NCBI GenBank assembly: GCA_039179045.1 | Contig: JBCDEZ010000001.1 | Location: 2,967 to 66,966, forward strand | Source of the DNA: Chlamydiota bacterium | Lineage (GTDB): Bacteria > Chlamydiota > Chlamydiia > Chlamydiales > SM23-39 | Direction: 5' to 3' | DNA length: 64,000 nucleotides | Shown: piece by piece, positions 46,627-47,874 of the stretch | Position numbering within the stretch: the first letter of the stretch is position 1 | Layout of the letters: each line of letters opens with the position of its first letter | Translations under genes and position numbers: made by a program | The notes under the pieces: model-generated | Database searches by the model: none | What the model saw: only the letters and a program-made list of their open reading frames with translations | What the model was told of the DNA's origin: nothing

Positions 46627-47874
46627 TCAAAAAGGCTCGATCTCGAACCTCGCCAAGGAGAGACCTAGCAATCTGCCCCCTGAATTCTGATCGAGATCAA
46701 GAAGCTCGTCGATTTGGAATGCAAAGGTTGTTGGCTCTCCTTTTCCCACAGCCTTTTCAGGCAAAGCTCCTTCGAAAAGGTACCATTCGCCTTGTTGCAT
46801 CTTTTTTAGATCGATCAGATAGCCATTGACTCGTAGTTGCAACGATTCGATGCTCCTTTCCACAGCGGTTTTTGCAAGGAAGCGGACTCGGTAGTCCCGT
46901 TTGTTGAGGGAGAAAACGAGATGAGGATTTTTGACAAAGGAAGTGCGCCAGTAGTAGGGGTAGGAGGGGCAACATTCTCTGATCATCCAGCCGTTGCCGA
47001 CTATGGCTTGGTCGGGAGTATACTCGATGCGATCGGCGAAGGAGTGTACAACAGGCTGTTGCAACACAGTTGTGTTGTGGCGAAACTTTTTCTCAAAGAG
47101 CTCTTGTGCAAAATGGTAGAGTTCATAGTCTGCCCAGTTGATCTTCTTGAGTTCTTCGATCTTCTCTTCAGAATAGTGGTTGCCTCTGCTTGCCAAGCGG
47201 TTGCATACGGGGATTGCAGAGATTTTTTCTAGCCCGAGCATCTTGCAAAGTGCGTTGATCGAGGCATCGAAATGCTCGGTAATGCCAACGAAGTCGAAGT
47301 AGTGGAGCAGATTGTACTTGGCGCTATCTAGATGCTGCTGAAGAGAGATCGTAGGATCTAGCCAAGAGAAGCTAGAGAGGTAGTAGACTTGCAAATTGTG
47401 CGCCACATCAATGGGGGGGCCTAAAGGGATCAAGTGGGATTGATTCATCGACTCTTCTGGGGAGTATTCTGCGCACATCTTCCAGAAGTTTTGATGACTC
47501 AAAAGGCGTTGAATCGGATCGCGCAAAAAGACGATATTGATCGCGTGGGGAAAATAGGGGAATCCATCTCGAAAGTAGAGGTGGCCGTTCACAAAACAGC
47601 GCTCATTGGGGGCAAAAGCGGAAAAGGGAAAATTTTTGACGGTGGAAAACTCCAGCTGCTCTAAATAAAAAGGATCCTTCCACCATTTTTCTCCATACGG
47701 ACAGATCGATTGGCTCGCATAGATGCGGTAGATATCGTGCGCAGAGTAATAGTAGCTCAAGATCGCAGTTACGCTGCTTCCGGAACATTTTGGTATGTGA
47801 TAAAAAAAGACCATAGAAAAGCCAGGGCGAGCAGCAAAAAGCCACAAAGCGAGAAGGAAACGGAGTAATTGCAT
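46627..47874 (-). CDS. sulfotransferase-family protein with N-terminal signal/anchor sequence and an extra C-terminal domain of about 130 aa
   Basis: MQLLRFLLALWLFAARPGFS leader. The 5'-PSB-like motif is FFYHIPKCSGSS (family: F.HIPKTGGTS). The 3'-PB-like motif is FLRDPIQRLLSH (vRdP.eR..S). FDFVGITEHFDASINALCKMLG corresponds to fd.vG.tE.fdeSl.ll. Confidence 0.8.
   Translation of the reverse strand: MQLLRFLLALWLFAARPGFSMVFFYHIPKCSGSSVTAILSYYYSAHDIYRIYASQSICPYGEKWWKDPFYLEQLEFSTVKNFPFSAFAPNERCFVNGHLYFRDGFPYFPHAINIVFLRDPIQRLLSHQNFWKMCAEYSPEESMNQSHLIPLGPPIDVAHNLQVYYLSSFSWLDPTISLQQHLDSAKYNLLHYFDFVGITEHFDASINALCKMLGLEKISAIPVCNRLASRGNHYSEEKIEELKKINWADYELYHFAQELFEKKFRHNTTVLQQPVVHSFADRIEYTPDQAIVGNGWMIRECCPSYPYYWRTSFVKNPHLVFSLNKRDYRVRFLAKTAVERSIESLQLRVNGYLIDLKKMQQGEWYLFEGALPEKAVGKGEPTTFAFQIDELLDLDQNSGGRLLGLSLARFEIEPF

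What the first reader, a model, noticed from the sequence alone, without database searches (positions are those of the whole stretch)
46627..47874. Secreted or membrane-anchored sulfotransferase in a Chlamydia-like genome
The protein has an N-terminal hydrophobic leader followed by both PAPS-binding motifs of the carbohydrate/heparan-type sulfotransferase fold (HIPKCSGSS and RDPIQRLLS) and the FVGITEHFDASI block. An unassigned C-terminal domain of about 130 aa follows. The gene stands alone: IS debris lies on one side, and a divergent mini-lipoprotein candidate on the other. Sulfated glycosaminoglycans are central to chlamydial attachment, and whether chlamydiae make or modify such ligands has long been debated. 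A bacterium-encoded exported sulfotransferase is a concrete candidate, either for modifying host or own glycans or as a horizontally acquired eukaryote-like effector.
Basis: partly seen in the sequence, partly recalled or inferred. Interest (0 to 1): 0.65.

Follow-up and report, generated by a model that had tools for sequence, protein, structure and literature searches.

The report
Exported glycan sulfotransferase in marine chlamydia
A marine Chlamydia-like bacterium carries an intact sulfotransferase gene whose product looks built to leave the bacterial cytoplasm and add sulfate to a sugar chain. It belongs to an undescribed, mostly chlamydial branch of a large bacterial enzyme family, and it did not come from a eukaryotic host.

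Summary
The 415-aa ORF at 46627-47874(-) is real. It is a Sulfotransfer_2 enzyme of the HS 2-O-sulfotransferase fold. The PAPS-binding Lys29, Arg118 and Ser126 and the catalytic-base His98 are all conserved. It also has a 20-residue Sec-signal-like leader and a C-terminal CBM6/35-like jelly-roll (residues 268-415).

The genome is chlamydial, judged by PdhA relatives and synteny. The gene lies in a ~3.8-kb lineage-specific insertion between a dnaQ-like exonuclease and a conserved mini-lipoprotein-pdhABC block. Its composition matches the rest of the window.

It is not eukaryote-derived. It nests in a large bacterial family (914 representatives at E<=1e-30) typical of polysaccharide gene clusters, where the ST often sits next to sat/cysC. 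The leader defines one clade. Its named members are three Chlamydiota, counting the window, and one 'Verrucomicrobia' MAG. In that clade the neighbouring GT25, methyltransferase and other sulfotransferase genes also carry leaders. In one Chlamydiales genome the adjacent PAPS synthase does too.

Best reading: an exported, PAPS-dependent glycan O-sulfotransferase. The acceptor, the location and the PAPS source are inferred. The window has no PAPS-synthesis gene. The GAG link is untested. The 'IS debris' claim is weak.

The parts
46627..47874 (-). Sulfotransferase gene (415 aa): leader, Sulfotransfer_2 catalytic domain and C-terminal jelly-roll
   Evidence: ORF list. Pfam PF03567 E=1.7e-7, above the curated cut-off. 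AlphaFold model pLDDT 85.4, pTM 0.84. Foldseek top hits are HS2ST 4ndz/3f5f at E=2.5e-7.
47815..47874 (-). Codons 1-20: Sec-signal-like leader MQLLRFLLALWLFAARPGFS
   Evidence: Modelled as helix 2-14, followed by a low-confidence linker 15-18. The same kind of leader occurs in 45 clade members: median uncharged run 15 residues, N-flank charge +2.2 against ~0 for the C-flank, N-flank more positive in 44 of 45. It resembles the leaders of this genome's own Skp and BamA. No dedicated signal-peptide predictor was available.
47074..47814 (-). Codons 21-267: alpha/beta PAPS-dependent sulfotransferase core
   Evidence: Pfam match to residues 22-256. Structural matches to HS2ST, HS6ST and bacterial ST 3rnl.
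47773..47799 (-). 5'-phosphosulfate-binding loop HIPKCSGSS (H26-S34; Lys29)
   Evidence: H26, K29 and G32 are invariant in the 27-member clade alignment. The PSB Lys/Arg is a defining feature of polysaccharide sulfotransferases (PMC11625862).
47581..47583 (-). His98, predicted catalytic base (in NGH)
   Evidence: phmmer aligns query NGH with the HGH of HS2ST. His142 is the putative HS2ST catalytic base, and H142A keeps <1% activity (PMC6094399). G97-H98 are invariant in A1 and near-invariant in A2 and A3. That HGH equals residues 140-142 rests on my memory of the HS2ST sequence.
47497..47523 (-). 3'-phosphate-binding motif RDPIQRLLS (Arg118 ... Ser126)
   Evidence: Aligns with IRDPIERLVS of HS2ST. 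R118, P120, R123 and S126 are invariant.
47257..47292 (-). FVGITEHFDASI block
   Evidence: Aligns with LVGVTEELEDFI of HS2ST. It is the most conserved stretch of the family and served as the search pattern FxFVGI[TA]E.
46630..47073 (-). Codons 268-415: C-terminal jelly-roll beta-sandwich (CBM6/35-like) with the conserved G-x-G-W-x-x-R-E motif
   Evidence: Domain-only model pLDDT 89.2. Foldseek matches CBM6 (5fui, 1gmm), CBM35 (2w47, 4qb2), CBM27, MiXBM and the GH156 accessory domain: target-normalised TM 0.52-0.60 for the free-standing modules, E 1.6e-3 to 2e-2. No Pfam family matches. The domain is also present in leaderless family members such as P0008.
46156..46626 (.). Non-coding spacer downstream of the ST gene
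   Evidence: Stops in all six frames. No match to the window's DDE transposase. Short repeats shared with 3751-3922 and 30803-30837. 90% identical in relative L084, the least conserved segment of the block. No Rfam family.
45436..46101 (-). Polytopic membrane protein of unknown function (221 aa from MGGGC..., 239 aa from the upstream TTG); part of the same insertion
   Evidence: No Pfam or NCBIfam family. Gene call in L001. Adjacent to the ST also in the diverged relative L084 at 85% aa identity. Not found beside STs elsewhere.
44392..45414 (-). Zn-dependent alcohol/aldehyde dehydrogenase (Ahr-like); third gene of the insertion
   Evidence: Pfam ADH_N and ADH_zinc_N. NCBIfam Ahr 249 bits, below the cut-off. 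Absent at this site in relatives L010-L012.
44274..48042 (.). Lineage-specific insertion at a variable spot between the dnaQ-like exonuclease and the mini-lipoprotein-pdhABC block
   Evidence: In L011 and L012 the exonuclease and pdhA are about 270-320 bp apart, holding only the mini-lipoprotein. L010 has unrelated genes there (DAO and a 163-aa ORF). The flanking order accA-msbA-...-epimerase-exonuclease / pdhABC-corA-lpxD-skp-bamA-recR-fabH is conserved.
48043..48204 (+). Conserved ~53-aa lipoprotein gene (backbone, not part of the insertion)
   Evidence: Orthologous ORFs with a lipobox and the motif PVTNNPxIVPxHGSGLPMM lie directly upstream of pdhA in L010, L011 and L012 (tblastn E 4e-15 to 5e-11).

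Best explanation
The gene encodes a PAPS-dependent carbohydrate O-sulfotransferase.

Shown:
- It has the HS2ST-like alpha/beta fold.
- The full catalytic set is intact: Lys29 in the 5'-PSB loop, Arg118 and Ser126 in the 3'-PB motif, and His98 as base.
- A C-terminal jelly-roll of the carbohydrate-binding-module type is present.
- It belongs to a large bacterial family of polysaccharide-cluster sulfotransferases.

Inferred:
- The 20-residue N-terminal leader is a Sec signal. The enzyme then works outside the bacterial cytoplasm, in the periplasm, on the cell surface or in the inclusion lumen.
- The jelly-roll holds a glycan chain while the core transfers sulfate from PAPS to a sugar hydroxyl.
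- I lean (about 55:45) towards a bacterial envelope or inclusion-lumen glycan as the acceptor rather than a host glycoconjugate.
- PAPS would come from the host-derived metabolite pool that reaches the chlamydial periplasm, or from a PAPS synthase encoded elsewhere in the genome. One Chlamydiales genome encodes such an enzyme, with its own leader, next to the homologous ST.

Origin. The gene reached this lineage as part of a ~3.8-kb insertion and has since taken on the host genome's composition.
For: Enzyme class.
- Pfam PF03567 scores above its cut-off.
- phmmer and Foldseek rank HS2ST and HS6ST first.
- The catalytic and PAPS-binding residues are invariant and map to defined HS2ST residues.
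- Ten other family loci have sat and/or cysC beside the ST.

Glycan acceptor.
- The C-domain is a CBM6/35-like fold.
- The closest homologues P0001 and P0002 overlap the stop codon of a GT25 glycosyltransferase gene.
- P0008 and P0286 sit in Wzm/Wzt and Wza polysaccharide clusters.
- The window also encodes a PglC-like phosphoglycosyl transferase, Ugd and a polyprenyl synthase.

Export.
- The leader has signal-peptide statistics across 45 homologues.
- All 40 leader-positive sequences fall in one clade of 53, and none lies outside it.
- In L164 only the glycan-tailoring enzymes (2 STs, 1 MT) carry leaders. The nucleotide-sugar enzymes of the same cluster do not.
- In L002, L003, L013 and L085 the neighbouring GT, MT and ST enzymes carry leaders too.
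- In Chlamydiales L016 the divergently adjacent bifunctional PAPS synthase (NF004040, 862 bits) has a leader in place of its normal N-terminus. PAPS enzymes at leaderless loci do not.

Precedent. C. trachomatis enzymes use a host nucleotide-sugar in the inclusion lumen (PMC4829429).

Chlamydial host and insertion.

Functional constraint. The ORF is intact, dN/dS is 0.38 against L084, and the locus occurs in four metagenomes.
Against: - No signal-peptide predictor or experiment was available, so cleavage and export are inferred.
- PAPS has no known route into a bacterial periplasm.
- The window has no sat/cysC/cysDN, GT25 or transporter candidate, and the rest of the genome could not be searched.
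- L164 looks like an ordinary Gram-negative capsule cluster, where an extracytoplasmic PAPS- or SAM-dependent step is hard to explain.
- The only close relative, L084, has an in-frame stop at codon 161, on a 2x-coverage contig.
- No RNA data exist.
- The C-domain matches are fold-level only, with E values of 1e-3 or weaker.
- The clade tree is a quick NJ tree without support values.
Confidence: 0.42

Rival explanations
1. Host-directed secreted effector. The enzyme and its Sec leader are the same, but the protein goes on (for example via type II secretion or outer-membrane vesicles) into the inclusion lumen or host cytosol. There it sulfates host glycoconjugates using host PAPS.
For: - All described chlamydiae are obligately intracellular (established knowledge).
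- The gene is an orphan with no partner glycosyltransferase in 64 kb.
- Leader-STs occur as tandem paralogue arrays (three copies in L086 and L092, two in L090), as host-interaction families often do.
- Eukaryote-like Ser/Thr kinases lie beside the STs in L016 and L086.
- The fold is closest to animal GAG sulfotransferases.
- Host PAPS is cytosolic, which would solve the donor problem (established knowledge).
Against: - The family's ancestry and partner genes (GT25 of the LOS type, Wzm/Wzt and Wza clusters) point to bacterial glycans.
- No secretion signal beyond Sec can be read from the sequence.
- An exported PAPS synthase (L016) would be unnecessary if the enzyme worked in the host cytosol.
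- No host glycan-specific residues were identified.
Confidence: 0.25
2. Cytoplasmic-face membrane tether. The hydrophobic N-terminus is not translocated. It holds the enzyme on the inner face of the inner membrane, where it sulfates undecaprenyl-phosphate-linked glycan intermediates with cytoplasmic PAPS, as the leaderless relatives presumably do.
For: - It avoids the need for extracytoplasmic PAPS or SAM.
- It explains leader-bearing STs and a methyltransferase inside an otherwise ordinary capsule cluster in L164.
- The uncharged run is often too short (10-17 residues) to span a membrane.
- The window encodes a PglC-like initiating transferase.
Against: - The charge bias (positive N-flank, neutral or acidic C-flank in 44 of 45) and the length of the uncharged run are those of Sec signals with the C-terminus out.
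- The catalytic beta1 strand starts only about 5 residues after the hydrophobic run.
- The soluble PAPS synthase of L016 acquired the same kind of leader.
- The leaders resemble those of Skp and BamA in the same genome.
Confidence: 0.15
3. Decaying passenger gene. The ST arrived on a mobile fragment and has no present function. It lacks partners and a PAPS supply and is on the way to becoming a pseudogene.
For: - The insertion lies at a variable spot and is followed by a junk spacer with repeats.
- The gene is an orphan.
- L084's copy has an in-frame stop replacing the invariant Asn160 region, and L015's copy is frameshifted.
- dN/dS of 0.38 is only moderate and rests on 50 substitutions.
Against: - The 415-codon ORF is intact and every invariant family residue is retained.
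- Composition is fully ameliorated.
- The ST coding sequence is more conserved than the spacer or the neighbouring membrane gene: 94.5% against 90.3% and 92.5% nt identity.
- An identical contig occurs at depth 14, and near-identical copies occur in other runs.
- L084 has only 2x coverage, so its stop may be an assembly error.
Confidence: 0.1
4. Eukaryote-derived GAG sulfotransferase: a recent transfer of an HS2ST/UST-type gene from a host.
For: The best PDB matches are animal HS2ST and HS6ST. A leader followed by a luminal catalytic domain superficially recalls Golgi enzymes.
Against: - Identity to HS2ST is only 16-19% (phmmer E=0.01).
- Hundreds of closer bacterial relatives share the extra C-domain, which HS2ST lacks.
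- The gene nests in a bacterial clade.
- GC, GC3 and codon usage are native.
- The leader is a short signal peptide with no stem region.
Confidence: 0.03

Closest known systems
Heparan sulfate 2-O-sulfotransferase (HS2ST; PDB 3F5F, 4NDZ), Pfam Sulfotransfer_2
   Same: Same alpha/beta fold. Same 5'-PSB Lys, 3'-PB Arg and Ser, and His base in a GH motif. Same AKxNL...FVGITE block. Best sequence and structure match in the PDB.
   Different: Only 16-19% identical. The window protein is bacterial, has a short cleavable-type leader instead of a type II anchor plus stem, and carries an extra C-terminal jelly-roll that HS2ST lacks. Acceptor specificity is unknown.
Leaderless two-domain sulfotransferases of bacterial polysaccharide clusters (e.g. 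the five tandem paralogues beside Wzm/Wzt in L004; Bacillaceae, cyanobacterial and Acidobacteria members beside sat/cysC)
   Same: The same family by profile: 914 representatives at E<=1e-30, many covering both domains. Same catalytic residues and the same C-terminal G-x-G-W jelly-roll.
   Different: They have no N-terminal leader and presumably act in the cytoplasm on nascent polysaccharide. Identity is 21-30%. They are embedded in clusters with their PAPS genes, whereas the window gene is an orphan.
Leader-bearing clade members in other PVC genomes (Chlamydiales MAGs L015 and L016; 'Verrucomicrobia' MAG L013; metagenomic P0001 and P0002)
   Same: Same architecture: leader, ST core and jelly-roll. 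They form one clade and are 29-46% identical to the window protein.
   Different: They sit beside leader-bearing partners: GT25 and methyltransferases (L002, L003, L013), or a PAPS synthase and a second ST (L016). The window gene has none within 64 kb. None has been characterised.
Periplasmic aryl sulfotransferase (ASST/AssT) of Enterobacteria
   Same: It is the known case of bacterial sulfotransfer outside the cytoplasm (cited in PMC11625862).
   Different: It is PAPS-independent, has a beta-propeller fold (PF05935) and acts on phenolic donors and acceptors. There is no sequence or fold relation to the window protein.
C. trachomatis glycogen enzymes acting in the inclusion lumen on host UDP-glucose (Gehre et al. 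2016, PMC4829429)
   Same: A functional analogy. Chlamydial carbohydrate enzymes work outside the bacterium on a host-supplied nucleotide-activated donor.
   Different: Those enzymes leave by type III secretion, and the donor enters through the host transporter SLC35D2. Here the signal is Sec-like, the donor would be PAPS, and nothing has been shown experimentally.

Membership tests
Pfam Sulfotransfer_2 / PAPS-dependent polysaccharide sulfotransferases | Profile match above the curated gathering score | tested here: met
   PF03567, 32 bits against a cut-off of 22, E=1.7e-7, residues 22-256.
Pfam Sulfotransfer_2 / PAPS-dependent polysaccharide sulfotransferases | 5'-phosphosulfate-binding loop with a conserved Lys/Arg | tested here: met
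   HIPK29CSGSS. K29 is invariant in the 27-member clade alignment and near-invariant in the wider one. Criterion taken from PMC11625862.
Pfam Sulfotransfer_2 / PAPS-dependent polysaccharide sulfotransferases | 3'-phosphate-binding motif with Arg and the PB-helix Ser | tested here: met
   R118-D-P-...-S126 aligns with RDPIERLVS of HS2ST. R118 and S126 are invariant.
Pfam Sulfotransfer_2 / PAPS-dependent polysaccharide sulfotransferases | Catalytic base (His or Glu) at the HS2ST His142 position | tested here: met
   G97-H98 aligns with the GH of HGH in HS2ST. The role of His142 is from PMC6094399. H98 is conserved in at least 90% of sequences.
Pfam Sulfotransfer_2 / PAPS-dependent polysaccharide sulfotransferases | alpha/beta P-loop-like sulfotransferase fold | tested here: met
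   The confident model (pLDDT 85) hits 4ndz, 3f5f, 5t03 and 3rnl with probability 1.00.
Pfam Sulfotransfer_2 / PAPS-dependent polysaccharide sulfotransferases | PAPS-dependent sulfate transfer to a carbohydrate | not testable with these tools
   Only indirect support: sat/cysC genes lie next to family members in 11 loci.
Heparan sulfate 2-O-sulfotransferase orthologue (GAG-specific enzyme) | Orthology-level sequence similarity and a eukaryotic sister group | tested here: not met
   16-19% identity, phmmer E=0.01. It nests among bacterial sequences.
Heparan sulfate 2-O-sulfotransferase orthologue (GAG-specific enzyme) | Conservation of the HS-binding residues, and activity on IdoA/GlcA in HS | not tested
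Sec (SPase I) signal peptide | Positive n-region, 7-15-residue h-region, and a small -3/-1 c-region just before the mature domain | tested here: inconclusive
   Heuristic statistics fit: window leader M-QLLR-FLLALWLFAA-RPGFS; clade median uncharged run 15; charge bias in 44 of 45. No trained predictor or experiment was available. The window's uncharged run is the shortest in the clade (10) and its c-region (GFS) is not a classic AxA.
CBM6/CBM35 carbohydrate-binding modules | Jelly-roll beta-sandwich fold | tested here: met
   The domain model (pLDDT 89) matches 5fui, 2w47, 1gmm, 4qb2 and 7ehg with target-normalised TM 0.53-0.60.
CBM6/CBM35 carbohydrate-binding modules | Sequence-family membership and ligand-binding residues | tested here: not met
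   No Pfam CBM family matches. Foldseek E is never better than 1.6e-3 and identity is 7-17%. The domain is therefore CBM-like and not a member of CBM6 or CBM35.
PAPS-independent periplasmic aryl sulfotransferase (ASST) | Beta-propeller fold, PF05935 | tested here: not met
   No such Pfam hit and a different fold.
Chlamydial Inc / type III effector | Bilobed ~40-60-residue hydrophobic domain (Inc) or a non-hydrophobic T3S N-terminus | tested here: not met
   There is a single 10-residue uncharged run at the extreme N-terminus. T3S signals cannot be read with these tools.

The most novel reading that the evidence does not exclude
Chlamydiota, and perhaps other PVC bacteria, run a glycan-tailoring pathway outside their own cytoplasm. 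It would consist of Sec-exported GT25 glycosyltransferases, SAM methyltransferases and PAPS-dependent sulfotransferases. In at least one lineage it would include an exported PAPS synthase that makes the sulfate donor extracytoplasmically from host-derived ATP. This would work like a 'Golgi outside the cell' and depend on the intracellular lifestyle. The window's enzyme would be an orphan member of this toolkit that sulfates a surface or inclusion glycan.
Probability: 0.3. Interest if true: 0.85.

Novelty: new variant of a known kind. Interest (0 to 1): 0.6.

Why it matters
PAPS-dependent sulfotransferases are known as cytoplasmic enzymes in bacteria and Golgi-luminal enzymes in eukaryotes. I know of no described bacterial enzyme of this class that is exported, and three literature searches found nothing linking sulfotransferases to Chlamydia-related bacteria.

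If the leader does drive export, two things follow:
- It gives a concrete, testable candidate for bacterium-made sulfated glycans in chlamydiae. That idea has been discussed since heparan-sulfate-like GAGs were implicated in attachment (reviewed in PMC6795091).
- Taken with the leader-bearing PAPS synthase, GT25 and methyltransferase genes at related loci, it suggests that intracellular bacteria can place donor-dependent glycan chemistry in the periplasm or vacuole, where host metabolites are available. This would extend the precedent of luminal glycogen synthesis in C. trachomatis (PMC4829429).

If the leader is only a membrane tether, the gene is an ordinary polysaccharide sulfotransferase acquired by a marine chlamydia. 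That would matter mainly as evidence that some chlamydiae decorate a glycan of their own.

Tried and rejected
- Single-protein scan of GTDB genomes found nothing. The alignment-based scan later worked.
- IMG/VR scan for viral relatives found none. BFVD fold hits were generic phage and giant-virus STs matching the N-domain only. A giant-virus origin for the L002-type clusters was therefore dropped. Tight, overlapping, same-strand genes also fit a bacterium.
- Recent HGT judged by composition was rejected. Gene GC is 0.475 against 0.481 +/- 0.025, GC3 is +1.4 sd, and codon distance is mid-range.
- 'IS debris': tblastn of the window's DDE transposase against the spacer gave nothing. Only short non-coding repeats were found.
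- The Rfam scan found no RNA in the 471-bp spacer. The promoter/terminator scan was no better than shuffles. Neither ATG1 nor ATG21 has a Shine-Dalgarno.
- No PAPS synthase, GT25, methyltransferase or second ST is in the window.
- The window's Inositol_P-family gene could be a PAP phosphatase (CysQ), but it scores below every NCBIfam cut-off and closer to SuhB, so it was not used as evidence.
- The neighbouring membrane protein has no family and no recurrence beside STs other than in L084.
- The word-indexed protein search with the clade alignment returned no organism names for clade members. The taxonomy of L002, L003 and L164 therefore remains unresolved. The only hint is that the GT25 of the chlamydial locus L011 is 43-48% identical to those of L002 and L003 and has a similar GC.
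- Pfam and PDB-sequence profile searches of the C-domain gave only sub-threshold hits: DUF7024 at 0.048, CBM60 at 0.033, and a botulinum-toxin lectin-like domain at 0.08.
- No RNA runs hold the gene.
- Read laying could not settle the L084 stop codon, because the relevant variant rows were truncated.
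Full report
**Observation.**

The ORF 46627-47874 on the minus strand (415 aa, ATG) exists as described. It matches Pfam Sulfotransfer_2 (PF03567) over residues 22-256 at E=1.7e-7, 32 bits against a curated cut-off of 22. NCBIfam gives nothing.

Against PDB sequences the only hits are heparan sulfate 2-O-sulfotransferase (4ndz/3f5f, E=0.01) and 6-O-sulfotransferase (E=0.39). 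The printed alignment pairs:
- query NGH with HGH of HS2ST;
- FLRDPIQRLLS with IRDPIERLVS;
- AKYNLLHYFDFVGITEHFD with AKYNLINEYFLVGVTEELE.

His142 of HS2ST is the putative catalytic base, and H142A keeps less than 1% activity (PMC6094399). A PSB Lys/Arg, a PB-helix Ser and a His/Glu base are the accepted defining residues of polysaccharide sulfotransferases (PMC11625862). In the family alignments H26, K29, G97, H98, R118, D119, P120, S126, F195, G197 and E200 are invariant or nearly so. The enzyme therefore looks catalytically competent.

**Structure.**

A full-length AlphaFold model built on 17 sequences is confident (pLDDT 85.4, pTM 0.84). It shows helix 2-14, a low-confidence linker 15-18, an alpha/beta core 22-265 and an all-beta domain 283-415.

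Foldseek against the PDB ranks HS2ST first (E=2.5e-7), then HS6ST and a bacterial sulfotransferase (3rnl). The C-domain picks up carbohydrate-binding beta-sandwiches.

The C-domain modelled alone (pLDDT 89.2) matches CBM6, CBM35 (including uronic-acid-binding examples), CBM27, MiXBM and the accessory domain of a GH156 sialidase. Target-normalised TM is about 0.5-0.6 for the free-standing modules and E runs from 1.6e-3 to 2e-2. No Pfam or PDB-sequence profile hit is significant. The 'unassigned' C-terminus is thus a CBM-like jelly-roll at fold level. It is not a member of a defined CBM family.

**The leader.**

MQLLRFLLALWLFAARPGFS precedes the first beta-strand (VFFYHIPK) by only a few residues. 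The ATG at 47874 is the first start after an in-frame stop. Neither it nor Met21 has a visible Shine-Dalgarno, so the start cannot be fixed from the DNA alone.

The closest homologues carry leaders of the same type with no internal Met before the HIPK strand. In them the leader must be translated.

Across 45 clade members:
- the uncharged run has a median of 15 residues (range 10-26);
- the N-flank carries +2.2 net charge, against about 0 for the 12 residues after the run;
- the N-flank is the more positive in 44 of 45.

These are the properties of Sec signals with the C-terminus translocated. They resemble the leaders of Skp and BamA in the same window. No trained predictor was available, so export remains an inference.

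**Whose genome.**

The window carries fabH-fabD-fabG, recR, bamA, skp, lpxD, corA, pdhABC, accA, an MsbA-like ABC transporter, zwf/pgl/opcA, lgt and a DDE transposase.

Every named top hit to the adjacent PdhA is from Chlamydiota: 'Chlamydiota bacterium' at 73%, and Simkaniaceae, Parachlamydiaceae and Chlamydiales MAGs at about 59-62%. The DNA is found only in marine and plastisphere metagenomes. 'Chlamydia-like genome' is supported.

**Insertion.**

In the three closest relatives (L010, L011, L012) the order accA-msbA-hyp-hyp-epimerase-exonuclease / pdhA-pdhB-pdhC ... corA-lpxD-skp-bamA-recR-fabH is conserved.

- In L011 and L012 the exonuclease and pdhA are 270-320 bp apart.
- In L010 the gap holds an unrelated DAO gene and a 163-aa ORF.
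- All three have a ~50-aa lipoprotein ORF just upstream of pdhA, orthologous to the window's 48043-48204 ORF.

The window's Zn-ADH, unknown membrane protein, 471-bp spacer and sulfotransferase (44274-48042) are therefore a lineage-specific insertion at a variable spot.

The gene's GC (0.475), GC3 (0.565) and codon usage are typical of the window (means 0.481 and 0.501), so the acquisition is not recent.

The spacer has stops in all frames and no similarity to the window's transposase. It shares only short repeats with two other degraded intergenic regions. 'IS debris' is not substantiated.

**Family.**

The word-indexed search found only 16 relatives. The best are 45-46% identical, and none is from NCBI or UniRef. 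The exhaustive profile search shows this understates the family. It found 24,689 representatives at E<=1e-3, 11,401 at <=1e-10 and 914 at <=1e-30. Many are about 400-420 aa long and cover both domains.

A GTDB scan found 71 loci in Cyanobacteria, Bacillota, Bacteroidota, Verrucomicrobiota, Nitrospirota, Acidobacteriota, Proteobacteria and Nitrosopumilus, at 21-33% identity. Two Chlamydiales MAGs were among the top five.

The leaderless member P0008 lies in an array of five paralogues directly upstream of a GT1-methyltransferase fusion, Wzm/Wzt and GT4/GT2 genes. Ten other loci have sat and/or cysC beside the ST. The family is therefore bacterial, linked to polysaccharide synthesis and PAPS-dependent by genomic association. 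A eukaryotic origin is not supported.

**The leader clade.**

In a neighbour-joining tree of 150 members, all 40 sequences scored leader-positive fall in one clade of 53. None lies among the rest. The leader-negative members of that clade are N-terminal fragments or borderline leaders. The named members are the window, Chlamydiales L015 and L016, and a 'Verrucomicrobia' MAG, L013.

Contexts in this clade are distinctive:
- P0001 and P0002 start at the stop codon of a GT25 gene. In L002 all 16 ORFs, complete or nearly so, start with signal-like leaders. They include three GT25s, Methyltransf_21/23/24 enzymes, two further ST-like proteins and an esterase-like pair.
- L013 and L085 show the same pattern, with methyltransferase-like and GT-like neighbours.
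- L086, L090 and L092 hold tandem arrays of leader-STs.
- In L164, a Wza-type cluster, the two STs and a Methyltransf_24 have leaders. The radical-SAM, GHMP-kinase, epimerase, DegT and nucleotidyl-transferase enzymes do not.
- The chlamydial relative L011 carries a leader-bearing GT25 that is 43-48% identical to those of L002 and L003, about 2 kb from the insertion site.

Most striking is Chlamydiales L016, a 1.6-Mb contig. There the ST homologue is divergently adjacent to a bifunctional sulfate adenylyltransferase/APS kinase (NF004040, 862 bits against a cut-off of 669). Its usual N-terminus is replaced by MTFLIRTFLIFSLLLLSTSNAQ. A second, Sulfotransfer_1-type ST with a leader lies nearby. 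PAPS enzymes at leaderless loci keep their normal N-termini.

**Mechanism.**

Shown:
- fold and catalytic residues;
- a CBM-like domain;
- a conserved, signal-like leader that is a shared derived feature of one clade;
- glycan-enzyme partners in relatives;
- PAPS genes beside family members;
- a chlamydial host genome and an insertion.

Inferred: the protein is exported by Sec and sulfates a glycan outside the cytoplasm.

The donor is the weak point. The window has no PAPS-synthesis gene, and the rest of the genome could not be searched. Chlamydiae import host ATP and other metabolites across the inner membrane, so these must pass through the periplasm (established knowledge). C. trachomatis also runs UDP-glucose-dependent glycogen synthesis in the inclusion lumen (PMC4829429). 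An exported PAPS synthase, as in L016, would fit such a compartment.

I lean slightly towards a bacterial or inclusion-lumen glycan as acceptor. The reasons are the family's ancestry, the LOS-type GT25 partners, and the PglC-like transferase, Ugd and polyprenyl synthase in the window. A host-directed effector is nearly as likely, given the orphan gene, the paralogue arrays and the kinases next door.

A cytoplasmic-face tether would remove the donor problem and would suit L164. It conflicts with the charge bias and with the leader on the PAPS synthase.

**Constraint and caveats.**

Against L084, a relative 93.5% identical in DNA that keeps the ST-spacer-membrane-gene order, nucleotide identity is 94.5% for the ST, 90.3% for the spacer and 92.5% for the membrane gene. 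dN/dS is 0.38 for the ST and 0.65 for the membrane gene.

L084's copy has an in-frame stop at codon 161, but the contig has only 2x coverage. L015's copy is frameshifted.

No transcript data exist. The tree has no support values. The taxonomy of L002, L003 and L164 is unresolved.

**Verdict.**

A eukaryote-like origin is not supported and the GAG link is untested.

It is a new variant of a known kind: a leader-bearing, CBM-tailed branch of bacterial Sulfotransfer_2 enzymes centred on Chlamydiota. Three literature searches found no description of it.

Noticed in passing
L016:5842-7650 (-), with L016:4064-4843 (-) and L016:7575-8960 (+): In a Chlamydiales MAG (1.6-Mb contig) a bifunctional ATP-sulfurylase/APS-kinase (PAPS synthase) has a signal-like hydrophobic leader in place of its normal N-terminus. 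It lies divergently beside the leader-bearing ST homologue. A second leader-bearing Sulfotransfer_1 enzyme and two eukaryote-like Ser/Thr kinases lie nearby. I know of no described exported PAPS synthase.
   Followed up: partly
L002:1-13831; L003:1-5004; L013:51-10018; L085:6097-11239; L164:6739-11182: These gene clusters hold enzymes that need UDP-sugars, SAM or PAPS (GT25, Methyltransf_21/23/24, ST-like proteins, GT-like proteins), and all of them start with Sec-signal-like leaders. In L164 the nucleotide-sugar synthesis enzymes of the same cluster lack leaders. The organisms behind L002, L003 and L164 are not identified.
   Followed up: partly
window:48043-48204 (+): A ~53-aa lipoprotein (lipobox LSSC; conserved ...DLSTVPVTNNPHIVPQHGSGMPMMPG) lies directly upstream of pdhA and is conserved in three related chlamydial genomes (L010, L011, L012). 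Automated gene callers missed it or called another frame (the 33-aa call in L001).
   Followed up: yes
window:44274-48042, compared with L010:7050-10000, L011:9728-10000 and L012:9679-10000: The exonuclease/pdhA junction is a variable spot in this chlamydial clade. It is empty in two relatives and holds DAO plus a 163-aa ORF in a third. L011 also has a leader-bearing GT25 inserted about 2 kb away and an LRR protein after pdhC.
   Followed up: yes
window:4824-5791 (+): A tandem duplication (4824-5280 against 5326-5791, 70% identity over 477 nt) encodes two paralogous ~150-160-aa proteins. Each has a long two-lobed hydrophobic stretch (...AAGIAAATYFAWQAYTITAVALGVLSAVSLIVTVALRD...), reminiscent of chlamydial inclusion-membrane (Inc) proteins.
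   Followed up: no
window:35510-36891; fragments at 30340-30397 and 30834-30880: An IS element with a DDE_Tnp_1 transposase (36013-36771) is flanked by imperfect ~180-bp inverted repeats (74% identity). Solo end-fragments lie in the ORF-poor region around 30.3-30.9 kb.
   Followed up: partly
window:19423-23327 (-): A run of an Inositol_P-family phosphatase (SuhB/CysQ-like, below all NCBIfam cut-offs), a PglC/WbaP-type polyprenyl-phosphate sugar transferase, a polyprenyl synthase and a UDP-glucose 6-dehydrogenase. It suggests this chlamydia builds a lipid-linked, possibly uronic-acid-containing glycan of its own.
   Followed up: partly
L084:14-994 (covers window 45301-47624): A 93.5%-identical relative keeps the ST-spacer-membrane-gene arrangement. 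Its ST reading frame has a stop where the invariant Asn160 region should be (AHNL -> APK*). The contig has only 2x coverage, so it is either a pseudogene or an error.
   Followed up: partly
L004:6155-12402: Five tandem ~400-aa leaderless paralogues of the two-domain ST lie directly upstream of a GT1-methyltransferase fusion and Wzm/Wzt. This is an unusually sulfotransferase-rich ABC-transporter-dependent polysaccharide cluster in an unidentified bacterium.
   Followed up: no
window:45436-46101 (-): A polytopic membrane protein with no Pfam or NCBIfam family lies downstream of the ST. It is co-conserved with the ST only in the near relative L084, and its dN/dS of 0.65 suggests weak constraint.
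   Followed up: partly
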